From Adineta vaga (Eukaryota > Animalia > Rotifera), in contig CP075492.1 in assembly GCA_021613535.1 (NCBI GenBank), forward strand, positions 14,694,001-14,758,000: 64,000 nucleotides of DNA. The letters are read 5' to 3'. The notes under the pieces are model-generated. The model was not told where the DNA came from, did no database searches, and saw only the letters and a program-made list of their open reading frames with translations. Below, piece after piece: positions 828-53,764 of the stretch. Numbering within the stretch: position 1 is the stretch's first letter; each line of letters begins with the position of its first letter. The translations under genes and the position numbers were made by a program.

Positions 828-928
828 ACAAGTTGCATCATTGATTTGCTAAGAAACACGTGTTGTCGTTTTTCTTTCTCGAAGTAAAAGAATATATAGA
901 ATATTTCATAATCATTTTGTAATTTTAT

Positions 929-2092
929 ATGATGCAAACAGAGAATGTGTTTATTATTGCTGGAGCAGGCATTGGAGGTTTAGCAACTGCTTTAGCATTG
1001 CAACAGAATGGATTTTCGTATGAAATTTATGAACGTGACATAGATTTTAATTCTCGTCGACAAGGTTATAGTTTAACTATTCAAAAGAATGGATTTGCAG
1101 CATTGAAAGAACTTGGTTTAGGTGATTGTGTACGAGAGATGGGTGCAGATTCTGTAATCGCAGGAACAGCTACATACAACAATTTGGGTGAAGTGATCTT
1201 TTCTAAATCTAAACGAAATAGGGATCGATATAATTTCAATAATTTTGCAGTACCACGACAATCTCTTCGTACATGTCTAATGAATGAATTAAAACCAAAT
1301 GTTATTCATTGGAATAAAGAAATTATTCGATATGAATCGTTACAAAATAATTCTCATCAAATTCGAGTTATCTTCTCGGATAATACATCCGTTGTTGGTC
1401 GTGCATTGATTGGCTGCGATGGAGTTCGTAGTACAATTCGTAAACAAATGTTAGGTGATGATTTGAATTATCTTGGTGTATGGGCGATTAATGGTATTTC
1501 ATCTCATCAACAGAATCCACTTCTTGTCAATAAAACTGTTCAGATGCTTGATGGAAAATCTCGTTTATTTATTAAACCATATTCTCTTCATAAATCTATG
1601 TGGCAATTGACTTTTCAAGTTTCGAAAGATGATCAAACTTACAATCAAAATGATTTAGAAGATTTATTAAATAAAGCAAGACATACTACGAAAGATTGGT
1701 ATGAATCAATTACAAAATTAATTCATGACACGTCAGTTTCAGATATTCGTGCTGGTCCAGTTTTTGATCGAGATCCATTGGAAATTATTCGCAAAGACGT
1801 CGAATGTGTGACAATGTTAGGTGATGCTGTACATCCTATGAGTCCTTTTAAAGGACAAGGAGCGAATCAGGCATTGACGGATGCAGTTAATTTAGTAAAA
1901 TTTATAATGAAATATCAAGAAGAGAATGATGGCGTCGAAAAAGCTTTTCATGATTTTGAAAATGAAATGCTCATACGTTCAAAACGTTCTGTTTTACAAT
2001 CAAGATCAGCGGTAAAATTTCTTCATACTAACAATGCTCTTCTAAACACAAATATGTCTCAATTTATCAGTGGTAAACTTGTATTCGAATAA
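929..2092 (+). CDS. FAD-dependent monooxygenase (group A flavoprotein aromatic hydroxylase; salicylate hydroxylase/TetX-like fold), intronless
   Basis: Motifs IAGAGIGGL (GxGxxG), IGCDGVRS (DG motif) and LGDAVHPMSPFKGQGANQA (GD motif). Confidence 0.9.
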   Translation: MMQTENVFIIAGAGIGGLATALALQQNGFSYEIYERDIDFNSRRQGYSLTIQKNGFAALKELGLGDCVREMGADSVIAGTATYNNLGEVIFSKSKRNRDRYNFNNFAVPRQSLRTCLMNELKPNVIHWNKEIIRYESLQNNSHQIRVIFSDNTSVVGRALIGCDGVRSTIRKQMLGDDLNYLGVWAINGISSHQQNPLLVNKTVQMLDGKSRLFIKPYSLHKSMWQLTFQVSKDDQTYNQNDLEDLLNKARHTTKDWYESITKLIHDTSVSDIRAGPVFDRDPLEIIRKDVECVTMLGDAVHPMSPFKGQGANQALTDAVNLVKFIMKYQEENDGVEKAFHDFENEMLIRSKRSVLQSRSAVKFLHTNNALLNTNMSQFISGKLVFE

Positions 2093-2338: not shown

Positions 2339-2693
2339 TCAACAATGAGAAAGATTGCCGTAACAATAAAAACTAGATACATAACCAATGCCTCCTTGTT
2401 TTAAATTGATTTGATACCATTTATTATCGTTCGTTTCACCAATTTGAACATTTTCACCTTTCACCCAACAATCAGCTGGATATCTATCTCCTGCATGAAT
2501 AGTGCTTATAGATGAACAATGCGTATTACTACATAGACGAATATCTGCTTCTTGCTTACATTCCACAAATCCAGTCTAGATAAAACTTAATTTTTTATTA
2601 TATTTTTAAAATAGAAACGATGATCATTACTTCGGATTGATGAATTATCATCAATAATAATAACAACACCAGAACAATAGAAATGATGTGCAT
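2339..2693 (-). CDS. Small secreted six-cysteine SH3b-like protein (paralog A)
   Basis: Exon 1 (2693-2631) encodes signal peptide MHIISIVLVLLLLLMIIHQSE. GT-AG intron 2630-2576. Exon 2 reads TGFVECKQEADIRLC…DCWVKGENV…KWYQI…GYVSSFYC…C*. The pattern C-x3-G-x2-V…W…GYVS resembles bacterial/fungal SH3b. Confidence 0.7.
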
Positions 2694-6813: not shown

Positions 6814-9113
6814 CTATTTCGAGTCTTGTTCTAGACGATTGATATTTGCGAGTTGTTCATCAATTTCCTTGGCTTGTTTCTCCCAGTTCATATCTTCATA
6901 GAGTTTTTTGGCTGCTGTCAAGTTTATACGAGCTGCTTCGAAATCACGTAAGCCAAGTTGAAGATCAGCTAGCTGTATGTGACTTTGAATCACAATGTTC
7001 TTTTTATCTTCGATCTCTTGCAAGTCGTGAAATGGAAGTATCTCATTGCTCTGTACCGTTGCATGATGTTTCAAAAGTCGATACTTCAATGCTGATGAAA
7101 GATCTTTGAGATTGTCTTTGTAGATGTTGGATATACGTTGATAAATGCGAGACAAATCTTCATGATTGTTCTGAGCGACGTAGATCTTACAGATTTCTTT
7201 GTAGTTTATCAGAGCCTCATCAAATATCTCCATCTCTTCCTGAAGCTCAGCAATATTCTTGTAGCATTTGCCCAATTGTCTATCGATAGGTGAGCAAAAT
7301 TTTAAAAGAGCTTGAAGTCGAAGTTGTTCGTAGTGTAGAGCAGATTTTTTGTCTTCCTTTTTATCATTTATCTCTTCCTTTTCTAAGTAAACCGTCGATA
7401 AGATCTGATATAACACTGCTTTTTGTCTTTCATTATCTGGTAACTGATTCAGAGTGGTTTTACAGATTAATATTGCAGCATCATATTGTTCCTGAGCCGA
7501 CTTGTCGTCCTCGAAATGAAAGTAATGCAGGCGACCTATTTTCAGATGAAGATTGGCAATTTCGAAACCATTGTTCTCAGGATATCTTTGCCAGATTGTA
7601 AGCGCTTGTTTGTAGTATGTCAATGCTGCTTTGTAATTTTCCCGACCATATCCCTCTTGATATCCACCCAATGCTCTGTATCTCTCGGCCTCCAGTTGTT
7701 CTCCCTCCGAAGTAAATAATTCATTGAGTTCATCGAAAATAGTGTTAATCTCCTCTTCTGGAGCATCTTTGCACACTTTTCCAGCAATGATACTAACACA
7801 CTCTTTCAGACTAATTTTTCTGTTCTCGAACGGCAGAATATAATCATCTTCCAATGTCAGCATCACCTTGATAATCTTTTCATCTTCACTGTAACTACTG
7901 CTCCGAAGACGAAGAAATGTTCCCATCATGAGAAGTATTTCTTTCTCGTTGGAGAATTCACTCAAATGAGAAATATCTCCGAAAGGTTTAGAGTTGTATC
8001 TGGCGTTTAGATTAATTTCTAGCAGCACCCGGACGTAACCTTCCATCACTGAGGATATAGGCGGAAGAAAACTGAGCGATAGACGCCGATCAAGCGATGT
8101 CGACAGAAAACTGGTTAACCTCACCATATAGGCAGACTTTAATGTTTCGACTTCATCCTCAGACATGATCTGTCCTCGAAACACTTGCACTTGTACGTTG
8201 TCTACGTTGGTGGTTTTGAATGTTTCGTGTTCCTTTTTTAATTGGAGAAATAAATCTTTAATGTAGTAGCCGAATGCAAACATTACTCTGACGTTGTACT
8301 GTCGATTAGCTTTGTTGATCAAGCGAAAAAAGAAGGTATCCCGTGTATACCACCAAACAGCCTTATCAGGAGTATACTCACGCTCGAACTCATCGATAAC
8401 ACGCAGTTCTCCAACTTTTCCATCGTAATAATTTCGTAGTTCAGTAGTGAGACGCTGGTGGCATACTTCTCTTGGATAAGGTAAGTGGCAGAGAGCATCC
8501 ATAAATATTACCCACCATGAAGCAGAACCAGATTCTGTTGTTCTATCTTGTTTGTCGAAGTTACCAAATACACCATCCTTCTCTTTTTCCAGATATCTCT
8601 TTACGTCACTATCGACTGCCTGAAGTAAGGATTTGTGATTCGTGTACACTTTCTTAACCTGCAGTAAAAAAGTGTCTTGCGTCGCAGAAAAAAACTAAGT
8701 TTAAATCTTACCTTTGTGTACGAACTCGGCCAGCTTTGAAGATGTTCACTATTCTGAGAGTAGACAAAAATTGAACGAATGTTTTGCAAGTGATGAATTT
8801 CTGGAATTAACTGCTTGCCGATGTTGTCTGAACAGACTAGAAAACACACGACATATTGTGACTCTTGTAGATAATGTTTACAGGAGTCTTGATTGTCAAA
8901 GAACTTGGTGTAGTCGACAATTTCACGTAATTTGGAGATGGTCAGGTCTCCATTTAAGCCATCGTGAACATGGTTATCGCACCAGACTAACTGATGTGAC
9001 TCAAGATTGAGTCGTTCACGGTCGAAAAGGCGAGATCGTATAGGGGAATTTCCTTGAATTGTATTATCGGCCGATATCATGGAAGATTGTGATGATCCAA
9101 CGAATGTGTTCAT
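6814..9113 (-). CDS. R-S-E class ADP-ribosyltransferase with TPR repeats and an N-terminal receiver-like alpha/beta module (paralog 1)
   Basis: Intron 8711-8659 joins the two ORFs in frame (…SYTK|VKKVYTN…). ART motifs VFRGQ, FLSTS and SNEKEIL. C-terminal TPRs (AALTYYKQALTIW, EALINYKEI). Start codon uncertain (9113 or an upstream Met). Confidence 0.85.
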
Positions 9114-10026
9114 ATTTTTTGTAGCCGTTAAATTTCGTCTTCTCAATAGTTTTAACTTTAGTTTGTCTCCATGGCTCGAGAAACATAACATTACTGTTCT
9201 GTGTATGTGCTGCTTTTTTTTCATCGCTTCATCATCATCTCCATGGTTTACGTTTTACGGAGAACAAGTAAAATAAATGTGTTCTCACAATTTCCACTTT
9301 TGTTTGTTTGTCGGAGAAGGCGTAAACACGTGTTTTTACGCGTCCAGACGTGCACATTTCAACACGTTATAAATGTATTTTTGTGAAAAACTTTCTCCGA
9401 TTGTGTCTGCCTGGCAAATGTTTGATTCATATATTTTCTTTCGACAGGTTCAACTAAAATAGCAAAAAGTAGAACGACGAGATTATTGTCAGAAACAACC
9501 ACCATGACGATTGTAGGGTGAACCCTATATCAACAATAAAAATTCAACAATGTAAACAAACGTCGTAATGCTTTATTATTATTATTCGATATTTTATTTA
9601 ACAAAACATAGTACACAATGATGCTATTAGTCAACACATGATGCAGTTTATTTACTGTCGTTGGTTAGTTTTTTAGACCTTTCATAAAGCGCAGAAGAAA
9701 TATTTATTAATGTATATTAAGTATGAATGGTTCTAATTTTGTTAGCCATGACAATAATTTCATCAAGTTTTTTTATGACTTTAGGTGGCATAAAATGACT
9801 TAAATTTGAGTTCTGATTGATTTAAATCAATCACTTCCTTTTCCCCTGATAACCAGCTTCTTGCATAAGAACAAATTCATCTGGAGGTATGATGAAGATC
9901 ACTTCTCTTCAGCTATATATCCTTTTTCATTATTAAGTTCCTATTTGACAAAAAAAGCAAAAACTTTATTAATTTAACAATATCAATCACAAAAAACGAC
10001 AATAATTCGTTCATTTCTTTTGTCTG

Positions 10027-15453: not shown

Positions 15454-15840
15454 TCAAGTTTGAGTTTTTCGACAAGGTCCTTGTGGTCCTCTGCACAACA
15501 AACTGCTAACAAACCCGTGAGTCCCGTTTGACAAATTGAGTCTAAACCAGCGTGCGCTAGTAACTCCTCCACGAGTTGTTGGTTTTCCGTACACGAAACA
15601 GTCTGAAGGATAGTCGCGTCCTGCCAGTACATGACTGACTGTCGGACACGTATCAGCTGAGCACTTAAATACGCGGCCCCAATGTGCACATGCAACGGTT
15701 CCATTTGTGCTCTATAAAAAAGTAGCATTAAGATAGAACGTGAAAATATACTCTAGTAATAATATATGTACTTGACAGTCAATGATATATACTGAGCACA
15801 AAAGCGCAATGAAGACCGAAACGATCATTTGATTTGCCAT
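15454..15840 (-). CDS. Small secreted six-cysteine SH3b-like protein (paralog B); not in the ORF track in this frame
   Basis: Exon 1 (15840-15772) reads MANQMIVSVFIALLCSVYIIDCQ. Intron 15771-15712. Exon 2 reads STNGTVACAHWGRVFKCSADTCPTVSHVLAGRDYPSDCFVYGKPTTRGGVTSARWFRLNLSNGTHGFVSSLLCRGPQGPCRKTQT*. It aligns without gaps to the 2339-2693 protein with all six Cys conserved. Confidence 0.8.
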
Positions 15841-32720: not shown

Positions 32721-33698
32721 CTACCGAAGTAAGAAAAAAAGAATTGACAGAAAAAAAGCAGAAAAGTTTTTCATAAAAGGATTTGTGTTGACGAAAGCAT
32801 TCGAGTTGGAAACAGTAGTTTTCATCCAATCAATAATAGCATCAGCAACTTGTTCAGGTTGCTCAGGGAATAGTGCATGACTAGCCGCTTCGATCACTCT
32901 TACAGTGACAAGACTGTTGAGTACGTCTTTCAATTCATTTCGTGACCAAAATGGTCTCCATGGATCTTCAGCAGCTTGTAAATCAAGAATAGGAGAATGT
33001 GACACAGGCCACCATTCAGTTTTCGATGGAATTTTTCCTGCACTACGATAAGCAGGACGAAGTTCAGGATGCCAACCTGTTAACCAAACTGAAGCATTAC
33101 TGTTAGGTGCAAAGAAGGCATGATACAAATGGACGAGTCGTTCATCTTCTGGGATTGTAGCATTCGCTACACGTTCAAGAGAGACAGTTAGTGACGAATC
33201 ATTCTGATATTGTTGTTCACCTGCAGCGACTACAATTCCACGAACTAGGTGTGGATGATCAAGATCAGTAACACGTGCCACATAATGACCAAATGCATGA
33301 CCAATAATTACGGCAGGATAACCTCTACCTAATTCACGTATTGTAATTGCTATATCATTGGCTAAAATATGTAATGTAAGATTTTCCAATGAACCACGAC
33401 TATTCCCAATACCACGTGGTTGCGGACGAAGAACCAAATAACCTGCCTTAGCAATACGTTCAGCAACATGATTAAATTCATTACTACCTCGTTGTGACGA
33501 TGGAAGAATGATCACTGGTGGAAGTCCATCTTCACCATCGATAATTACATCAAGTGTTAAATCAATTTGAGGTGTTAGTAGAACACGACGACGTTGTTGT
33601 GAAATCGTCGTATTTAAATTTATTTCAGATATTTCATGAGAATTTCGTATGAAGACGACGTAGATGGTAAAAAGAATGAATAACCATTTGACTTCCAT
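32721..33698 (-). CDS. Bacterial-type alpha/beta-hydrolase-fold protein with signal peptide and GPI-like C-terminal tail, intronless
   Basis: Motifs LRPQPRGIGNS, IIGHAFG (nucleophile elbow with Ala), QAAEDP and ASHALFPEQP. Hydrophobic N-terminus; C-terminus ends SNSNA…FSAFFLSILFFLLR. Confidence 0.85.
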   Translation of the reverse strand: MEVKWLFILFTIYVVFIRNSHEISEINLNTTISQQRRRVLLTPQIDLTLDVIIDGEDGLPPVIILPSSQRGSNEFNHVAERIAKAGYLVLRPQPRGIGNSRGSLENLTLHILANDIAITIRELGRGYPAVIIGHAFGHYVARVTDLDHPHLVRGIVVAAGEQQYQNDSSLTVSLERVANATIPEDERLVHLYHAFFAPNSNASVWLTGWHPELRPAYRSAGKIPSKTEWWPVSHSPILDLQAAEDPWRPFWSRNELKDVLNSLVTVRVIEAASHALFPEQPEQVADAIIDWMKTTVSNSNAFVNTNPFMKNFSAFFLSILFFLLR

Positions 33699-33849
33699 AA
33701 AAGAATAAAACAAAGTGTCTGATCAATTTATTCTTTTTCTCGAAAAGAGCAAATATCGACACGATATGCAACATAAAGGTCGGATTATAAAACCTATCGT
33801 ATTTTTCTTTATTCTTTCATTGACATAAAGAAATTTCATAGAAATGAAG

Positions 33850-37312: not shown

Positions 37313-40300
37313 TTAGAATTTTTTTTTAATTTTTTCATATCTCTTAATAGGATCATTTGTTCTTCGATGTGTTCCATAGTAATGAATAAGTTCGGTTTCG
37401 TATTTTGCACGATCGGATCCCCATTCTGCCGGGTTTTTTGAAAGTTTCGGATATTTAGTAAACAGATGTTGTAACGCCTTTCCAAAATCATCTTTAACAT
37501 ATCCTGGTGCATTAACATGTTGATCGAGAGCTACAGCTTTTCCCAAATTTGATTGTAAATAATCGTTGATTGTATAAGACTTAAAACCAGTTGGTTTTAT
37601 TGGTAACACTTCTTTATTCAAACGATCAATGAAATCAACTACTTGCATTTCTTGAAATTCTTTATTACTGATTGCGTTAACCAGTACTTCTAATGGTTTT
37701 GACGGGGCTGTTTTAATTTTCTTCTGAAAATCTGCTCTAATAAAGTCTTTCAATTCTTTGCCGGTTAGTTCATTATAAGACATTGAATGAACTCCCTTAT
37801 TTTTTGTAACTGTCCAGCCCTGTGCTTCAAAAAGCTCTTCATAAAGTTTGGGATATTGTGTTTTGAATTTCCATACTTGTGTCGGAAATTCACCATTACC
37901 TTTAGGATTGATTGTTTTTTGCATTGCACCAGCTGACGCTATTTCACTATCGTAGGATTGAACACTTTCTAAAGTTCCTTCAGTTGTACTCATTCCACTT
38001 ATTATCTTTTTATCATCAATAGTCGCTTTTTTTCGTTCAATTAAACTATTCCAACCCGTGTAATCAGCTAGATCAGTAGTACCTGAATATTCTGGACCAT
38101 ATTGAATTTTGTTGTTCTTTTCATACTTGACACGATTAAATTGGATGTTTTCATTTGATGGGGCAGTTGGAGCGAGATTATTTTGATAAATCATGGGATA
38201 GAGTGGACCACGATTAGATGATACTATAGAAGAAAACGAAGAAATACTTGATTAAAATAAAATTGCATAGTATCAACTTTGGTAAAATTTGAGTGAGGGT
38301 GTGGGTATAATACTTCACGGTGATATCATGATACGTTTACGAATATTTTAAGGGAAATATATACAATCCTATATCGCTAGGTATAATTTTTATGAAAAAG
38401 TACAGGTTTTTCACCACTCTGATATTATCATTTAGAATACTGAAGTTAGTAGCTTCGATCTGTTACTAAAAATTTCAATTACCGTCGCGAAAATTCCATG
38501 GATAGAACTTGTTGAGAAGATCATTGTTATAATTCAATAAAGGCTGCATTTTAATGCCACCTCTTCTTGGATAATAGTTTCCAGAGTTTCCCATCAAGCG
38601 TAAAACAGTTGTTGGAATGTAGTAACATGATGACAGATTTGTAGAATTGTGATTTGCAATTATTCCCCTGCCAACTGATAATTGTGCAGATGCAGGTAGC
38701 TCATTGGTTTTATTACCAACGTCATATCCAGACTGAGACATTGTTTTATACAGATGTGATTGCGTTGGAGGAGATATTTTCATACGTTCGGTAATACCTA
38801 TAAAAACAACATACAGTTGTATGAAAGTTCAAACAATTTGAAATATGAACATCAAATCAATTCCATATTTTAAATGACTACTGGAAGACGTATGCTAATC
38901 TAATTGATCCTCTCTTTTCTTTCGAAAGTAAGATAAATTACAAACCTGCAATAATCTCGTTAACAAGAATATTTTCAGCATCCGGACTATCATTTGCAAG
39001 ATAGGTATGAATAGCGGTTTTACTGATTGCATATACAGAAAAATTGAATGCAGTTGAAATTGCTTCAGCAATCTCTTTGATCTTGTCATTTTGAATTTTA
39101 ATCAATTGTTCACGTACATGATGACGAGCAGCATCAAGATTTTGAATAGTATGCTTATTGGCAAGTACAAATCCTTGATGTAAGATTAGTTGATCTAATG
39201 TACTTTCAACACGTATATGTGTTACGTATGGCCATGCTCCACCAAAAACTTGACTTCTCAAATTACTGGAAGTTAAAAGTTGAGCAATTGACTGAATGAA
39301 TGAAAATAATTAATTATGCTTTATGTAAAAGAAAAGAATTGAAGTCGTCAAGTAACACTTACATCGAACGATGGTGGTGAAAGACTCTTTCGTAATTCAC
39401 GATAATGATGTTGAAAAATTAAAGCGATTCCAGTCAATTTACTTAATTCTCCTAGACGTAGTAGTTCGGGAAAGTAATTGCCAAATTCATTATAGTTTTC
39501 CGTCACTACTGTTGTAAAATGATCATATCGTGGAGAAGTGCCACCTATGTGCGTTTCAATGAAGCCAGTTTCATTGTTCTTTACTTGTCTGTAACGTGAA
39601 TTAGAAAACAAACATAGTGAATTTTTCCATCCACTCGAATATATTACCTGATATAACTTTCATATTTCACTTGCATATTCGGTGGACCGAGAACATAAGT
39701 CGTAACATCGTCTTGGTCTATTCGGTTATATTTGATTGGACCCGATTCAATCCATATTCTGGTGGCAGAAAGAAGTTCATTGTCTTCTAGTTCGTCATTA
39801 CTGAATAAACGTTGAAATAAATCACTTGATGGAGCCGATGAACTATTCTCACGAATAGGTCGGACATCGAAAGGAAATCGAGCAGACATCTCTGTTCGAA
39901 AATTCATACTCTTCAACCATAGATCTGCATGGAGAAGTGTTGAGAGAAAATCTGTGTCAGTAAGAGCATCATGTGGTAACCATGTAGCTTTTTGAAATGG
40001 ATGTGGAAGCTCAGAAGCCAGAGGAGGATCCAATGAGAAAGATGCACCTATTTGTAATTATTTGAAAGTATAATCAAAAGAAGAATTTCATATGCATACC
40101 TGTAATGCCTTTTTTCATTACCATTTCCACGTCATCAGAATTGAATAAAGCAGGTTTATCTTCTGCTTCCATTAAATTGAACCAAAAGGATCCATTTTGA
40201 TGAAATGAGATTCCTCCAACAGCAGAATATACCTTTCCATCCTTTGAAAGACATAATTGGTATTTTCAACTATTATAAACTGTAGATTCATGAAGATTAC

Positions 40301-41162
40301 TTACGTTAGGTTTTGGTACGTTCAGTGGTAAGCCAGCTAATCGGAAGCCATCTTTATCACGTGGTAACCATTTCCATTGAAGGAGACGTTCTACGTCAGC
40401 CATTTCCCAACCATATGTTTTCAATAAATGTTGTCGTACACGATTTTGTATTTGTTTAAAATTAGTATCATCTCCTTTCATATACTTATTAAAAGCACGA
40501 CGATAATAGTTTAGAGCAGCAGTATCATTTGGATGAATCAAATTCGAGTCCTCTTCACTAACGCCAAAGTTCAAACCATTAATAGAAATCGATAATCCAC
40601 TCTAGATGAGAAAAAGAATTTAGTAAGTCTTGAGAGTGTGGATATGAATTAAACATCATTCTCACTTCCTCATTCATGCTCGTAATTTATAAGAAAAAAA
40701 ACTATACTACCTTATTTCTTGGTGTCGGAGTAGTTTTGTCATCAAGTTCGAAATCAATTTTGTCAATGATTGGACGTATTGTTGTAGTTTCTAGAAAGCA
40801 TAATATGAAAGCTTTTCAACTGATTTGTTCAAAAAACATCTATAGTATTTACCTTGAAATTGATTGGTTGCTAAAGCAGTGGTACATATGCTTGCACATT
40901 CTTCAGAAGAATAATCTGTTTTCTCTTGAGATGTTTCATATGACTCTTCAGAACATTCACATAAATACTGATCTTTTGTATCGCTCGTTGATTGTGTTGT
41001 TAACTCGACTTCTGACGATTGTTCATCGGATTCAGATGGCAAACAATCTATACCAACACAATCATTATTTTCTGAACTCTCTATTGAAGATTCTGGTAGA
41101 ATAAACGATTGAGCTGACACAAACAGGAAAATTAGAATAATGCCAGTATCCAACGACTTCAT
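37313..41162 (-). CDS. Large secreted multi-exon protein: signal peptide, acidic Cys/Ser linker, conserved central region, and a C-terminal bacterial-type putative peptidoglycan hydrolase (lysozyme-like) exon
   Basis: In-phase GT-AG junctions traced at 40852-40791, 40710-40602, 40304-40242, 40099-40048, 39647-39589, 39362-39292 and 38482-38224 (…FRD|VSSNRGPLYPMIYQ…). One junction (~38945-38800) is not resolved. The last exon has EGTLESVQSYDSEIASAGAMQKT and ALDQHVNAPG. Confidence 0.65.
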
Positions 41163-43232: not shown

Positions 43233-45693
43233 TCAGTTCTCAAGCAATGTTTCTGCATATTTCAGTTTTTGTTCCTTTTCCTTAATTATACAATTGCAAT
43301 CTTCTAGCTCTTTATCATCGGATTTGCATGGTTCTTGTAATGGTCGTTCGTTCGATGCATACACCAGACGACCATCTTTAATTACCAAACGAACATCTCT
43401 GAGTATCAAATATTTTCTCTGTTGAACATAAGCTAATCCTTGATATAAGTGTTTGTAAGCTAGAATGTATTGCTTCATATTTAAGTAACAATCAGCCACG
43501 GAGAAATGACTTTCTTCGATAGATCTCATCGAAAATCTATTTGGAGTAGAATTGTTTTCAGCAAAAAGTTTCTGACAGCACTCATGTCGTAGTAGTTCAT
43601 AGTGTAAGGCGGATTTGAAATCGTGCATATGCTCCATGTAGATTGTGACTATCTTTCTATAAAGATCCATCATACGATCCAGTAAGTCTGCTTGCATATT
43701 GTTTAATGGATAGAATTCGAGTGCTTTTTTATAGTGAATCATTGCATCTTCGTAGTGATACAACACTGCATATCTATCTGCCAAATTTTCATAGTTCCAG
43801 GCAAGATCTTGTGATTTGGATGGAATTGGATGGTCTTTTACAAGTTCTATCCAAAGATGTTGGTACTCGATTGATTTCAATCCATATTTGTCTCGATCAG
43901 TTCTAGTTAAATCCTTATAGACACGGGATAACTTTGGCACAATCTCCATTTTTTCATAATCGTTAGTTGAACATTTCTTCAGAGCTAGCTCATAGAAACG
44001 GGCAGCTTTCTTCAGAAAATCAACGGAAAAATCCGACAGATGTGGTGGTCCGCACTCGTAGAGTTGTGCTCTAGCAAAGTAATTTTCGGCAATATCAAAT
44101 GAGCAGTTGAGTTTATCATCATCATCATCAACTGCTGAATACTCCTCCCAAATTGCAAGAGCCTGCTCGTAGTAGGAGAACGATGACGAATAGTCATGCT
44201 TCTTTTCTGTTGGATCATCGCAATGCTGAGCTTCCAGTTCAGCAAGAGCATAAAGTTTCACAGCCTTAATCCACTTTGCTTCTCTCGGATAAATATTCAT
44301 TAGAATATCGAAGACGATGGTATCCTCGAGTGTGGCAATCAGTTCTGACATATCTCTCAGTGCGCTCAAGCAGTTCTTCAGAGTTTTTCTTTCTGATCCA
44401 GCTTCTAGTTGTGTATCCCTGAATATATCGTAGTGTGATTGTAGTTTTAGTTTTACTAGCCAGTACGGCGGCAATTCATGAAGATCGTTTCGTTCTTGTA
44501 TACTGTGAAGAACGAATCTGGTATTCACCATAAATAAAGTTTCCCGTTCTTCAGGAAAGAAACTAAGTGATGTAATGTCTGCAAAGACTGCAGTCAAGTG
44601 TCGGTAGTCTGTTTCGATTTCAAACAGAACGCGATTGGCACCTTGTTCACACTCTGAAGCAATTAGAAATCCCTTGGCTATGGAGCAGTCACTTGATGTA
44701 GAGAACAGAGCGTTGTTTTGAATCGAACATCCAGCTGCTAATTTTTCGAGATCTTTATCTGAAAAAACTTGACCACGATATAATTTGACAATGGATCTTG
44801 CAGTATATTTCTCTTGTTCTTGTTTTAGCTCTCGATATAAATCTTGAAGAAAAGATCCGAACAACAAAAGCACTTTAATATTTCGCTGTCTTAACGCTTG
44901 ATTCAGAATACCAAAGAATATACTTGATCCAGAATACCACGAAACAGCTCGTTTCTTAGAAGGAAAGTCTATCTTAAATTCATCAATAATTGCATCCGTA
45001 AAACCGTGGTTCTTGAGCTCGGCTACAAGTCGATGATGGTAATTTTCAGGATACGGTAAGCTAATCAGTACTTTGATAATATTATGCCACCACAACTCAA
45101 AATTATCGTCGATACTAATTTGATGCCTAGGATTTTGTTCACTGAATATACCAGCTTTTTCGTGTTTGAAATATTCCTGAACATCTTCCTTTATCTTCTT
45201 CAGAAGATCGTCACGTTCCGTGTGGATAGAACAGACTTTCTAAAAGTAAATTCAAATTTGATGATTTAAAATAAAAATTCCTATAATTACCAACCTTGTT
45301 TGCAGCTATGAACTCGAGTGTTCTCGTATCAAGTACTTTACTCTTACCATAGATATACACTTTCCATATATTTGTTTTTCTGAACGGTAACAACTCGGGA
45401 ATAATATCCTGTGCGTATCTAACAGAGCAGACAAGAAATGTAAAAACATCATGACATTTTTCAATATGCTTCAAGCAATATCTCCAGTGATCAAAAGCCT
45501 TTGTATAGTTGACGACTTCACGAAACTTCGTAAGTGTAGAGAAAATTTCTTCCTCATCTTCGAGTTCAGACAATTTGATATCCGTCCATAGTAACTGATA
45601 AGATGTAAGATTTACATCGTGCCGATCGAAATAAGGATGCCATTTCGGTAGTAGACCGACGAGATGAAAATTGTGTGTGCCGCTGGATGCCAT
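43233..45693 (-). CDS. R-S-E ADP-ribosyltransferase with TPR repeats (paralog 2)
   Basis: In-frame intron 45294-45240 (IAANK|KVCSIH). Motifs LYRGQ, LFSTS and PEERETLF; TPRs (YYEQALAIW, AMIHYKKALE). N-terminus FDRHDVNLTSYQLLWTD aligns with FDRERLNLESHQLVWCD of paralog 1. Confidence 0.85.
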
Positions 45694-46660
45694 TCTATTG
45701 CCAAGCCGTATAATAATACACGAGCAAATAATGATACGATATATTCCATTCTCATTTCTCTCAAGTATATCACATATACACGATTTTTTATTCTATTCCT
45801 TATCTCTTTTTTTGCGTTTGTTTCTTTCTTTTATTATTGTCACAACAACTACTCTAGTCTTTTTCGTTTTTCTTATGTTGGAGAATAACAATACTCACGT
45901 GGGAAGAAACAAAAATGTCTTCAAACGATAATCGTGTTCGTAATATTCTTTTTACGTTCCTATCTCTTCATTCTTTGTCAAAAAAAACAATCTTCCTTCC
46001 TCACAAAAGTCTCCCGTTAGATACCTCATGATGGATAAAAACAGAATGCATGTCTACGTGATAGAATGAGATGAAATAAGAAGGAGAGAAAAGCATTCTT
46101 GTGTCAGAACGATTACATTCTGCCATAACAATTCGAACTAGGAGAACTCCCCAATTTCTAAATCTTTTTTTACTCAAAACTCATCGTAAATTCATGATTA
46201 TCAGTAGAGTTCAGCATCATATGACTAGTTGTTTGCTTGCTGTCTATATCTTGGACATTTCTGATCATCAGACTCATCATGATTTTTTCTTGAATAGCTT
46301 TCTGAGAAACGAATAGATTTCTATATATTATATTTATAAAAAACTTTGTGAATATTGATGCCGAATATATATTCTTGAACAAACAGATTATCCTTGTATT
46401 TATTCAATTCAATATATTGCACTCTATAGGACACGATGTTTTTGCACTAAAAATATTCATATTGCCTTCATTGACTTGTCATTAAAATTTCGTTCAATTG
46501 ATTCTAGGAAGGGATTTAGTAAGTATATACATACGAGTATATAGACAGTATATTTTATATAGATTCACATTGATATTTCATACAGTTATGTCGTATTCTA
46601 GGAGAGGCCTGAGTTGTCCATTTATTAAAACTAATAAAAAGAAACATTCTATATGTTACA

Positions 46661-48556: not shown

Positions 48557-50801
48557 ATGATAGATAAACACGGAGATGAAGAAGCCATGGCCATCAATTC
48601 ACCAGAATTAAAACCACGAATACTCTCGAAGTAAGTGCAATTCATATGATGATCGACAGTAAAAACTTAATATCCATTGTATTATTCATAGTTCACAATG
48701 GTCACGCACTTTACGCTCGTTTGAGCGTAAACATTTTTATGCTACTTTACTCGTATTGGTTATTGTTGGTAGTGTTCTGGCAGTAGCAATTCCTTATTAT
48801 CGAGTCTACAATAAAGGTAAATCAACGACGAAAACATTCGTCCTGGATTTTCATTAAGAGCGTGATATTTCTAGGCAGTTTCAACAATGAACAGGAAGAC
48901 ACTAATTCGGCAACGCAAGTGGAAGAATTAGAAAATGAAACACCAGAAACATTTGGATCTTTGAATGATGAACCGAACAAGGATCAGCCATCACCACGAT
49001 TACGATCAGCTTCATCTTATGTTAGTATTTGAGAATTATTTGTATTTAATTTAGTTCTTCTATAATCTAGCGAAAACATAAATCACCTGAAAATGTTGGT
49101 CACATGAATGTTTATATTCGTAAACCGACTAATGAGGGTACTCAACGACGACCTCATCAACTTCGTTTTCCCGTTGCACGTTACAATCGTCGACGATTGC
49201 GTCTGTATTTTCATACGGGTTAAGTTCATTTGATACAAACAGTCTTTTTTTTAGCTTTTCACGGTCCATTTCTAAGTTTTACTCCTCGCGTTCCAATATT
49301 TGTCGACCGGTTAACACGACAAACTCTTATATTCTCACCGTCAGGAGGTACACAAAAAATTGTAATTTCAAATATCTTAGTCAATAATTTAATTCTTTTA
49401 GTCTATATTTTACCACCAGTGATCAATTTTTATGGTAAAATGTTCTCAGTTGCTGAACTCATTGCATCCGGTTATGCTAGTCTGGTCAGTAGTGGTGCTC
49501 CGCCCGTCAGTCCTATTAATATGTTATCTTATTATCAATCTATTCCATGTTGGTTGATAGTCTAAATTTGTCTTTTTTTTCATTGAATTTATTCTGTTCT
49601 TCACATAGTGCTTGGTCCTGGTATTCCGATGATTAGTCCAACTACAGGTAGCTTTGATGGTGGCATTCGAACAAATTATAAATCATTCAAAACTCGAAAG
49701 TACTCTAGATCCTACTCTCAAATCGATGATTCGTATGAATCAGATGAACAAGACGAAGACGAAGACGAAGAATACGATAACGGTTATTATAAGAGAAGGA
49801 AATCATATCCAAGATATAAATATAATACACAAAAACCAAAAACACTAACAACAACTACTCGTTCTTCAGGTAGGACTCAGTTGAAGACGTAATCATGAAT
49901 CTCCTTTTCTCATTTAGATACATGTTCTTCTGATTGTGACACTGGTTGCACAAAGACATGTTTACGATCTAATGCCAAATGTCGCCCGAAATTAAAAACA
50001 ATATCCATTGTAACTGCACGTGATCAAGCACCATTCATATCTCAAACTGGCGACGATGCACCAGTTGGATTGGATGTTGATTTGATGCAATCTATTGCTG
50101 ATTTATATCAAATAAAATTCGTCTATCAATATGCTGAATTTTCACAATTTATTTCTATGGTTCAGAATGATATCAATCTTATTTCCATTAGTACTCATAC
50201 AGATACAATAGTACGAGAAGAGTTTGTTAATTTCGCTCATTTCTTCAAAACTGGTGTTGGATTTTTTACATTATCAACTTATACAGAAACTATTAATGGT
50301 CTCAGTGATTTATGTGGTAAAACAGTGGCAGTATTAACTAGTTCGATTCAAGAAATTGATGTTCAAAGTCAGAATACAAAATGTGGATCAAATCCTATAA
50401 CAATAATATCAGTTGCATCATCTACAGATAGATTAAAAGCAATTGAAGATGGTACAGCTGATGTAGCTCTTGATGATCAAGCTGTCATCGTCGCTATTGT
50501 TCAAGAATCAGAAGGTAAATTGAAAGAAGTTGGTCAACCATATGATATTCAACCTTTTGGAATATTATGTAATAAAAACAATAAACAATTATGTTGTGCA
50601 TTGGTTAATGCAATAAATTATTTGATTAAAAAAGGTACTTATGAAGATATCTTGAAGAAATATTCTTATTCTTTTAAAAATAACGGTATTTGTCCATCAC
50701 AAATCAATTTAAATGGTACATCATGTTCGTCAAAATGCACACCAAGTGATAGTGAATGTGAACAAAAGTTAGCTTCTACAGAAACTCAATTACCATCATG
50801 A
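48557..50801 (+). CDS. Type II membrane protein ending in a bacterial family-3 (polar amino acid) solute-binding domain, multi-exon
   Basis: Exon 2 TM segment FYATLLVLVIVGSVLAVAIPYY; several short exons follow. The last exon (from ~49919) has Cys-rich TCSSDCDTGCTKTC, then APF…GLDVDL…DTIVREEFVNF…DLCGKTVAV…GTADVA…AINYLIKKGTYEDILKKY. Internal junctions approximate. Confidence 0.7.
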
Positions 50802-52504: not shown

Positions 52505-53518
52505 TTATAATTGAATTTTCTCAGTACTAACATCGAAATTTCTGCTAACAAAAACAAATGAATTCGGTGGAATTAAATGCCAATCTTCTGCCTTGTATGT
52601 ATTTGGTTCACTGGCAACAATTGCATGTTTTCCATGTTTATCAGTTTCATATATTGATTTTCTTCGACTATCTTTTCCATCGGGATGATCTGGATACTTT
52701 CGATTAAGTGTTGGACCAGCTGTAGTTGAATAATATAATGATGGTGGCTCAAGTTGATCCGTTGATGCAAATCGTGTTGCCAGTAATTGACAACCATCGC
52801 TAACAGCAAAATTTAAAGCACTATGAAGAGAAATTTCCTCATTGTTGTTCTTAGTTTCATCAATAAGAGCAAGAACATCGCGAAGAGTTTTAATCATTGC
52901 TTCTTTGAGTTGTTCAATTTCTAATTCTGCATCCCAATCATCACCTAAATATGTAAAGAAAAGAGCAGCAACATGTTCTGTATCGGTTGTTCCAAAGATA
53001 TTTCCATACGCTTTTGTTGATAATTTACTTAATAATTTTACTTTAATTTTTGAGAAATTAGCGACATATCCATTATGCATGAACATATAACGACCAAATA
53101 TAAATGGATGATTGTTTGTTTCAACAATCGGTGAACTTGCTGTACCAGCACGGATATGTGCAAACACACATTTTGTTGCTGTATGTGCACATAGAGATGC
53201 AAGATTAAGATCATTGATAGGTGGACGTGTATTTCGATATACACATGGTCTGTTAATATAATCATCATTGAATTCAGCAGCGACACCCGTATAAAAACCG
53301 ATACCAAATCCATCGACATTAGTAAAATGATTCGGACCACGTTCATCAGATGCTACACCAGAACTATACATTTTTTTACCCAGATGTTCACCATAACTGA
53401 TATGAAGATTTGGAAGAAAGTGTACATCGATTTGTTTAACGATAGAATGTTTTGGTTTAATAAGAATATCTTCAAGAAGAGCAGGCTCTTCACCAATATA
53501 TGCAAACCATCGACACAT
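52505..53518 (-). CDS. Class II glutamine amidotransferase (Ntn hydrolase; fungal DUG3 / EgtC-like), intronless
   Basis: N-terminal MCRW (Cys2 nucleophile); motifs NVDGFGIGFY, FAHIRA, NNHPF, FMHNG, GTTDTEH and IVASEP. Confidence 0.9.
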   Translation of the reverse strand: MCRWFAYIGEEPALLEDILIKPKHSIVKQIDVHFLPNLHISYGEHLGKKMYSSGVASDERGPNHFTNVDGFGIGFYTGVAAEFNDDYINRPCVYRNTRPPINDLNLASLCAHTATKCVFAHIRAGTASSPIVETNNHPFIFGRYMFMHNGYVANFSKIKVKLLSKLSTKAYGNIFGTTDTEHVAALFFTYLGDDWDAELEIEQLKEAMIKTLRDVLALIDETKNNNEEISLHSALNFAVSDGCQLLATRFASTDQLEPPSLYYSTTAGPTLNRKYPDHPDGKDSRRKSIYETDKHGKHAIVASEPNTYKAEDWHLIPPNSFVFVSRNFDVSTEKIQL

Positions 53519-53764
53519 ATTTGTTTCTGTTTTGCTTCATCGATTGTTATTTTGTATACATTTAGATAATATTTCTTTCCTGACGATATTTTGCAAATAA
53601 TACGATGTCTATGATTCATTACTTCTTACTATTTGCTCACAGATGACGTGTCAATAATTGCACAAAGGTATGTAATTTCTATTAGTCATACCCTTTTTCA
53701 CTCGTTCTATCGTATATAAATAGGGAGAAATAGTCACAATCAATATATTCATAAACTGTTGATC

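What the first reader, a model, noticed from the sequence alone, without database searches (positions are those of the whole stretch)
38483..41162. Candidate eukaryotic polymorphic-toxin 'carrier': signal peptide plus conserved core ending in a GG(I/V) motif before a swappable tip
Seen: a signal peptide, an acidic Cys-containing spacer, then a globular core bracketed by two similar motifs, VGGISF near its start and RGGIKMQP at its end. The core contains FSLDPP, TLLHADLWLK, RIWIES and FPELLRLGELSKL. A low-complexity linker (NNLAPTAPSN) and the foreign-looking domain follow. Established: polymorphic toxin systems pair a conserved trafficking or processing N-terminus with interchangeable C-terminal toxins. 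Inference: paralogs should carry the same core with different tips, forming an undescribed secreted antimicrobial system in an animal. The nearby SH3b-like peptides could be functionally allied. Caveat: the junction at ~38945-38800 could not be put in phase with canonical sites, so this copy may have an unusual splice or a lesion.
Basis: inference. Interest (0 to 1): 0.8.

Follow-up and report, generated by a model that had tools for sequence, protein, structure and literature searches.

The report
Eukaryotic toxin carrier with swappable tips
This rotifer gene joins an unnamed protein domain to a last exon resembling bacterial toxin ends, and hundreds of relatives in animals, amoebae and other microbes carry the same domain with many different tips, so it is likely a secreted, wall-cutting member of a widespread eukaryotic weapon system that we found in no paper searched.

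Summary
The finding is exons 1-8 of an intact, spliced nine-exon Adineta vaga gene (1008 aa, UJR11430.1). All 8 introns are GT-AG, in phase, and skipped in RNA-type contigs, so the lesion caveat is wrong. Exon 9 (38223-37313) encodes a domain 36-52% identical to C-terminal domains of bacterial LysM-, PAAR-like- and VgrG-linked proteins, likely a lysozyme-type wall hydrolase. Rotaria homologues (58% identical core) carry an unrelated VgrG3-like tip that starts at the same intron position. The core has no Pfam or NCBIfam name and no solved-fold match, yet defines 563 clusters. Named members come from bdelloids, Hydra, a choanoflagellate, an amoebozoan and Tupanvirus. 117 of 160 examined reach the terminal GG(V/I) motif, and their tails fall into about 45 sequence groups (GIY-YIG, HNH, Ntox8, Ntox17, HicA, alpha-kinase, lysozyme-type). 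The common form is J-domain + FYVE + helical region + core + tip, without a signal peptide; the signal-peptide form is a bdelloid offshoot. Only the second GG is conserved, and it is predicted to be a structural strand, so self-cleavage there is unsupported. Function and delivery are untested.

The parts
40853..41162 (-). Exon 1: start codon, predicted signal peptide (aa 1-~19, 41162-41106) and acidic Cys-containing spacer
   Evidence: predicted disordered, pLDDT <50
40711..40790 (-). Exon 2: end of spacer (aa 104-130)
40305..40601 (-). Exon 3: core begins at about aa 155 (40529)
40100..40241 (-). Exon 4: core, with VGGISF (only the second G is conserved family-wide)
39648..40047 (-). Exon 5: most conserved part of the core (FSLDPP, HPFQ, LLHADLWLK, PF, RIWI)
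39363..39588 (-). Exon 6: core, long helices with FPELLRLGELSKL
38946..39291 (-). Exon 7: helical sub-domain of the core (aa 486-600)
38798..38945 (-).
38483..38797 (-). Exon 8: end of core; C658 at 38627; GG(I) motif at 38561-38556; ends at aa 705
38224..38482 (-). Intron 8 (259 nt, phase 1): the core/tip swap point
   Evidence: spliced in 2 of 3 RNA-type runs, and the third has a loose end at the donor; Rotaria read-through models break at the equivalent place
37313..38223 (-). Exon 9: Pro-rich linker (~aa 706-730) plus bacterial-type tip with E787 (37981-37979), D797 and Q807; stop codon

Best explanation
The gene is a spliced, intact member of a eukaryotic protein family in which a conserved ~530-residue core ends in a GG(V/I) strand and is followed by very different tips; this rotifer copy is likely secreted and likely cuts bacterial cell walls with a tip probably acquired from bacteria as its last exon. 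Shown: gene structure and splicing; the family; tip diversity; a different tip at the same intron position in Rotaria; bacterial relatives of the tip. Inferred: (a) secretion, from the hydrophobic N-terminus (0.85). (b) The tip is a lysozyme-type muramidase using E787 (0.75). (c) The core is a carrier that holds the tip at its C-terminal strand on a flexible linker and presents or releases it (0.6). (d) In the common cytosolic form, FYVE would target PI3P-rich phagosomes or endosomes and the J-domain would recruit Hsp70 (domain functions recalled), aiming nuclease, ART-like or kinase tips at engulfed or intracellular microbes (0.45). The bdelloid branch would have replaced that targeting head with a signal peptide plus Cys-rich spacer and kept wall-hydrolase tips that work outside cells.
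For: Gene: 9 exons, 8 of 8 introns GT-AG, one 1008-aa frame, identical to UJR11430.1; 8 of 8 introns skipped in RNA-type contigs of one study. Swap: Rotaria P0004/P0011 share the core (312 of 536, 58%) but not the tip (BLASTP best E 0.017; hhalign 0.2%). Their tip is PF21277 VgrG3-like (E 5e-53) and matches PDB 4NOO/4NSO (E 1e-26). It begins right after YPWNFPK, where two read-through models run into intron-like sequence just as the window does. Family: 563 clusters at E<=1e-3, 247 at <=1e-30. 117 of 160 examined reach the motif (99 YGGV), in 44 tail clusters; 45 clusters among the 110 tails of 85 aa or more. Pfam names a tip in 15 of 68 members scanned at E<=0.01: GIY-YIG 8, Ntox8 2, Ntox17, HicA, HNH, alpha-kinase and SLT 1 each. 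Cores 60-69% identical carry unrelated tails, while cores 25-27% identical share tails. On a 57-row tree GIY-YIG, ART-like and C4 tips each need at least 3 changes forced by strong branches, and one clade is rejected for ART-like tips (p-AU 7.5e-5). Tip A: all 36 non-rotifer hits are 36-52% identical and end within 30 aa of their C-terminus; 13 of 36 carry bacterial names and 12 of 36 carry LysM. One is fused to DUF4280, and one plasmid copy sits behind VgrG and ahead of a PAAR gene. E787, D797 and Q807 are kept in 39 of 39. Atlas features give top score 0.96 to unnamed bacterial clusters, and the named rows are GH46 and VgrG3-like. N-termini: DnaJ in 28 of 68, FYVE in 27 of 68 (many rows are fragments).
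Against: No activity, secretion or processing was shown. Tip A hits no Pfam, NCBIfam or PHROG family and no PDB sequence. Its fold model was poor (pLDDT 42.7) and gave no lysozyme match, so 'muramidase' rests on motif, context and language-model features; the Atlas family rows are 14% and 25% shares. T786 and A944 differ from the bacterial consensus (N in 38 of 39, R in 36 of 39). In the secreted clade only two tips are known, which needs just one swap; A. ricciae keeps the same tip at 65% identity, more than its core at 54%, so turnover here is slow. One clade was not rejected for Ntox8-like tips (p-AU 0.119), and tip labels overall are clustered on the tree (10 changes against 20.9 shuffled). 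Tail clustering both over-splits (GIY-YIG singletons, truncated tails) and under-splits (joins through linkers). 53 of the 68 members scanned have no Pfam-named tip. No immunity genes or orphan cassettes were examined. Allelic differences in RNA contigs are 18 synonymous and 11 non-synonymous of the 29 exonic sites listed, which is only moderate constraint.
Confidence: 0.72

Rival explanations
1. The family is a self-directed suicide or abortive-infection effector. The helical region would sense an invader (giant virus, endosymbiont), Hsp70 would hold the protein inactive, and the nuclease or ART-like tip would kill the producing cell. The secreted bdelloid form would be a repurposed side branch acting as a digestive or defensive lysozyme.
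For: Most members lack a signal peptide (heuristic flag in 11 of 160, 7 of them in the bdelloid clade) yet carry nuclease tips, which would sit in the producer's cytosol. Zhang 2012 suggests that toxin domains transferred to eukaryotes serve apoptosis or antiviral defence (PMC3482391 section 47).
Against: It does not explain wall-hydrolase tips, which have no eukaryotic target; two non-bdelloid members with such tips (P0112 SLT-like by Pfam, P0127 amidase-like by eye) group with the secreted clade (0.96; SH-aLRT 98). A giant virus also encodes a member. This rival differs from the best reading mainly for the cytosolic members.
Confidence: 0.3
2. The core is an enzyme or scaffold with its own job, and its C-terminus merely tolerates fusions; the tips are accessory captures, not a selected arsenal.
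For: The core holds many near-invariant polar residues (D266, D318, K322, R373, R454 in 90% or more of 128), as an active site might. Some members have short tails (13 of 117 under 100 aa), and R. magnacalcarata has annotated tip-less models (P0005, P0024).
Against: Every Pfam-named tip is a nuclease, bacterial toxin, wall hydrolase or kinase, none a housekeeping domain. Tip types recur on separate branches. The tip-less Rotaria models stop at or read into the last intron.
Confidence: 0.12
3. The tails are mobile endonucleases that home into a conserved site, or artefacts of joining neighbouring genes.
For: GIY-YIG and HNH are typical homing-nuclease folds (recalled). Most family models come from unnamed automated gene calls, and P0112 runs on into FNIP repeats, which looks like a fusion.
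Against: The core-tip junction of this gene is spliced in RNA-type contigs. Intronless single ORFs show the same layout (L004, L005, L007/L008). Lysozyme-type, kinase, HicA and Ntox tips are not homing elements.
Confidence: 0.04

Closest known systems
Crinkler / CR effectors of oomycetes and other eukaryotes (PMC5289972, passages read; Zhang 2016 not held)
   Same: Eukaryotic; conserved N-terminal part ending in a fixed motif (HVLVXXP there, GG(V/I)xLxP here), followed by diverse, often nuclease, domains thought to be of prokaryotic origin.
   Different: CRN headers are ~130-aa ubiquitin-like or small helical domains. Here the conserved unit is a ~530-aa alpha+beta domain with no Pfam, NCBIfam or PDB match, preceded by DnaJ + FYVE + helical repeats or by a signal peptide; tips include wall hydrolases.
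Bacterial polymorphic toxins (Rhs, CDI, MafB, T6SS VgrG/PAAR effectors; PMC3482391 passages and section 47 part 1; PMC3417536 passages)
   Same: Conserved carrier, motif, linker and replaceable C-terminal toxin; shared tip families (Ntox8, Ntox17, VgrG3-like C, HNH). That paper's table lists Ntox8 in dictyosteliids.
   Different: No RHS, FHA, HINT or ZU5 domain was found; genes have introns and the bdelloid swap point is an intron; no immunity gene or cassette array was seen; no bacterial carrier homologue was found (weak searches).
Horizontally acquired wall hydrolases of eukaryotes (Trichomonas NlpC/P60, bioRxiv 10.1101/320382, search listing only; tick Dae amidases, recalled)
   Same: A bacterial antibacterial enzyme domain placed behind a eukaryotic signal peptide.
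   Different: Those are stand-alone enzymes; here the domain is one of many tips on an older eukaryotic carrier.
Vibrio cholerae VgrG3 C-terminal muramidase (PF21277; PDB 4NOO, 4NSO)
   Same: It is the tip of the Rotaria homologues; the Atlas places this gene's tip in the same broad feature neighbourhood.
   Different: This gene's tip has no significant sequence similarity to it.
Tupanvirus soda lake 'J domain-containing protein' A0A6N1NXY0
   Same: The only structural match to the core model (Foldseek E 8.7e-31, 22% identity).
   Different: Uncharacterised; it is a family member, not an explanation.

Membership tests
Polymorphic toxin system | Conserved N-terminal or core region with interchangeable C-terminal domains | tested here: met
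   about 45 tail groups on one core; close cores with unrelated tails
Polymorphic toxin system | C-terminal domains are toxin or effector families | tested here: met
   Ntox8, Ntox17, HicA, GIY-YIG, HNH, SLT, alpha-kinase in 15 of 68 scanned; VgrG3-like. This gene's own tip is unnamed.
Polymorphic toxin system | Conserved motif at the carrier/tip boundary | tested here: met
   G680 and G681 each in 113 of 128 rows, 14 gapped
Polymorphic toxin system | Export or trafficking signal | tested here: inconclusive
   hydropathy heuristic only; the cytosolic form has DnaJ/FYVE instead
Polymorphic toxin system | Processing peptidase or autoproteolysis releasing the tip | not testable with these tools
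   no known peptidase domain by Pfam or NCBIfam; GG lies in a predicted strand
Polymorphic toxin system | Adjacent immunity gene and orphan tip cassettes | tested here: inconclusive
   no second core copy in the window; no genome held; a wall hydrolase needs no immunity in an animal
Polymorphic toxin system | Demonstrated toxicity | not testable with these tools
   needs bench assay
Crinkler/CR effectors | Short ubiquitin-like or helical header ending in HVLVXXP | tested here: not met
   no Crinkler or Ubl Pfam hit and no such motif in P0001; the conserved unit is ~530 aa and matches no solved fold
Lysozyme-like superfamily (tip) | Catalytic Glu at a helix end, then Asp and a GxxQ hairpin | tested here: inconclusive
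   E787, D797, G804 and Q807 invariant in 39 of 39; the pattern is recalled; profile and fold tests gave no significant match
DUF1598 (PF07643), recalled resemblance of the core | Hit to the Pfam model | tested here: inconclusive
   no hit in any member scanned, including 27 at E<=10; no DUF1598 protein could be obtained for a profile comparison

The most novel reading that the evidence does not exclude
An undescribed polymorphic toxin system native to eukaryotes, built on a carrier domain of unmatched fold. It is spread across phagotrophic protists, animals and a giant virus, targets bacterial-type toxins through a J-domain + FYVE head to phagosomes, and in bdelloid rotifers has been rewired into a secreted antibacterial whose warhead is exchanged by last-exon replacement with horizontally acquired T6SS effector domains.
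Probability: 0.5. Interest if true: 0.93.

Novelty: new variant of a known kind. Interest (0 to 1): 0.85.

Why it matters
Zhang 2012 states that most eukaryotic toxins are not direct counterparts of bacterial polymorphic systems; Crinkler/CR proteins are the main later exception. This family would be a second, unrelated carrier reaching into animals (bdelloids, Hydra). It gives a testable route by which horizontally acquired bacterial toxins are put to work in eukaryotes. It also offers a carrier domain with no solved fold, and a simple way to harvest new antibacterial domains: read what follows the GG motif (the largest tail group, 26-27 members, is unnamed).

Tried and rejected
Lesion or unusual splice at 38945-38800: rejected. 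Core ending at the 38475 stop: rejected. Paired GG motifs: rejected. Single exons gave no significant Pfam, NCBIfam or PHROG hit. The core had no usable Atlas hit, no PDB sequence hit, no Foldseek PDB hit at E<=1e-3 and best VIA Z 5.7, only over the helical part 480-608; the model was 1008 aa, so single-domain matches may be missed. No core relative was found in GTDB genomes, IMG/VR or plasmids; these are pattern- or single-sequence searches of low sensitivity, and the viral blank is contradicted by the Tupanvirus match. The DUF1598 resemblance was not supported. RhsP2/TreX-like identity of the 'ART-like' tips is recalled; PDB sequence searches with two of them gave nothing, and NCBIfam named no tip among 37 proteins (best tail-region rows were weak, e.g. 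IscB E 0.003). The tip-alone fold was too poor to use. No sequencing holder is on record as RNA; the runs used are guessed to be RNA, supported by their intron skipping. Literature: 10 full-text searches found no description of this family. Zhang 2016 (CR effectors) was not held, and only 1,214 characters of the Zhang 2012 supplement are held, so an earlier mention in those supplements cannot be excluded. Four look-ups of earlier scan findings returned nothing.

Full report
Observation. The region is AT-rich eukaryotic DNA. Nine minus-strand exons (41162-40853, 40790-40711, 40601-40305, 40241-40100, 40047-39648, 39588-39363, 39291-38946, 38797-38483, 38223-37313) join through 8 GT-AG introns into one 1008-aa frame, identical to Adineta vaga I4U23_015610 / UJR11430.1. 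Contigs of three runs guessed to be RNA (one study) skip all 8 introns at the predicted places. The gene is intact and spliced through to the tip.

Anatomy. aa 1-~19 are hydrophobic (heuristic). aa ~20-150 are acidic, Cys-containing and predicted disordered. aa ~155-690 fold with high confidence (blocks mostly pLDDT 85-98 from 160 to 630) as an alpha+beta domain with a helical sub-domain at ~480-625. After a disordered stretch the chain forms strands at 659-662 and 680-684 (GGIKM, block pLDDT 94), and then a low-confidence region from 700 (102-row alignment). Coordinates of the model were not available, so burial of the GG strand is inferred. The core has no Pfam or NCBIfam name and no solved-structure match. 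Its only structural hit is a Tupanvirus J-domain protein (E 8.7e-31).

The tip. Exon 9 has 36 non-rotifer relatives among proteins of 477-2000 aa, 36-52% identical, all C-terminal. 13 of 36 are named and all 13 are bacterial; 12 of 36 carry LysM; others carry SH3b, M15 peptidase or PAAR-like DUF4280. A Burkholderia plasmid copy lies directly behind a VgrG gene and two genes ahead of PAAR. The three rotifer tips form one branch (0.996) among these; no root is available, so bacteria-to-rotifer transfer is inferred from the distribution. Invariant E787, D797 and GxxQ807 and Atlas neighbours in GH46 and VgrG3-like clusters point to a lysozyme-type enzyme, but direct profile and fold tests were blank.

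The swap in bdelloids. A. ricciae has the same tip (65% identity; core 54%). Rotaria magnacalcarata and R. socialis have a core 58% identical, followed by a VgrG3-like domain. Their annotated read-through models (P0017, P0024) diverge right after YPWNFPK into 'GN', as the window does after PWNFRD, and the fragment P0016 enters the tip at the same Val. So the swap point is inferred to be the same phase-1 intron. Bdelloids also hold the other form: R. sp. Silwood1 P0009 and Didymodactylos P0216 (DnaJ + FYVE, 2014 aa) with further unrelated short tips.

The family. A tip-free core profile found 563 clusters; only the best 150 were returned. I examined 160 sequences: 147 newly returned representatives, 10 proteins from the earlier searches and 3 metagenome ORFs. 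117 reach the terminal motif, typically C-x-W-V-P-A...Y-G-G-V-x-L-x-P; 43 do not, most being fragments. Tails group into 44-45 clusters, an approximate count. Of 68 members scanned with Pfam (chosen to cover tail groups, not at random), 28 have DnaJ, 27 FYVE and 15 a named tip (HNH, SLT and two GIY-YIG rows are under the curated cut-off). Only 5 of the 20 representatives looked up carry a source name, and 4 of those give an organism: the choanoflagellate Acanthoeca, the amoebozoan Soliformovum, Hydra vulgaris and Didymodactylos. L006 is open for 649 aa under the ciliate-type code. Group labels (protist lineages, phagotrophy) are recalled. The true range is therefore known only in outline.

Tree. 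On 139 cores (FastTree) the signal-peptide bdelloid proteins form one clade (1.00), joined (0.96) by P0112 (SLT-like tip) and P0127 (amidase-like tip, by eye). On a 57-row subset GIY-YIG needs 6 changes, ART-like 4 and C4 5, at least 3 each forced by strong branches. One clade is rejected for ART-like tips but not for Ntox8-like tips. Groups were defined from tail sequence after the first tree had been seen, with some rows added by eye; the wall-hydrolase group was named from that tree, so its support of 98 is not an independent test.

Mechanism. For this gene: secretion, then a tethered or released muramidase-type tip acting on bacteria in the gut or at the body surface. For the family: a targeting head (FYVE to PI3P, J-domain to Hsp70; recalled), a carrier core, a fixed terminal strand, a flexible linker and an exchangeable toxin. 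Whether cytosolic members kill prey or their own cell is open. [quoted passage not shown]

Comparison. It works like a polymorphic toxin and parallels Crinkler/CR effectors, but fails the Crinkler header test and shares no carrier domain with bacterial systems. Papers seen: PMC3417536 (passages), PMC3482391 (passages and section 47 part 1 of 2), PMC5889660 (passages), PMC5289972 (passages); all others only as search listings. Ten searches found no account of the family; unseen supplements may bear on this.

Verdict. Observation confirmed, interpretation supported and widened; new variant of a known kind; interest 0.85.

Noticed in passing
window 2342-2575 (-) and 15457-15711 (-): Two paralogous short Cys-containing ORFs, 35% identical; the first hits bacterial SH3_3 weakly (E 4e-4, under cut-off), the second nothing.
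   Followed up: partly
window 43233-45792 (-) and 6814-9254 (-): Two paralogous genes (28% identical) that by eye look like the ADP-ribosyltransferase + TPR type expanded in bdelloids (recalled, not scanned); one lies about 2 kb upstream of the finding.
   Followed up: no
L004:3-5384 and L003:3824-4264: Intronless 1794-aa family member with a FYVE-like finger, two ORFs upstream of a Peptidase_M91 effector-type gene (E 3e-6); the dense layout could be an endosymbiont or giant virus.
   Followed up: partly
tail cluster C1 (P0090, P0083, L004, L005 and others): Largest tip group, 26-27 members of 100-190 aa with conserved His residues, unnamed in Pfam and NCBIfam; P0108 adds a HicA domain behind a C1-like stretch.
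   Followed up: partly
P0006, P0007, P0008, P0133, P0148: In A. ricciae and relatives the spacer is expanded into several Cys-rich ~65-aa repeats (C-x-C-x-C-P-Y-G...), of which the A. vaga spacer looks like one degenerate copy.
   Followed up: no
P0127 aa 1-220: This member has a different, apparently duplicated N-terminal region (L-G-x-G-(I/V)-Y-L motif twice) in place of the J-FYVE head; no Pfam hit.
   Followed up: no
P0005, P0024, P0025 (R. magnacalcarata): Models lacking ~75 aa of the core (the stretch matching exon 6) and the tip; broken copies or annotation errors.
   Followed up: no
window 32721-33722 (-), 49899-50801 (+), 52505-53536 (-), 923-2092 (+): Long uninterrupted ORFs that by eye resemble bacterial-type enzymes (alpha/beta hydrolase, solute-binding protein, glutamine amidotransferase, FAD monooxygenase), consistent with frequent horizontal transfer in bdelloids (not scanned).
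   Followed up: no
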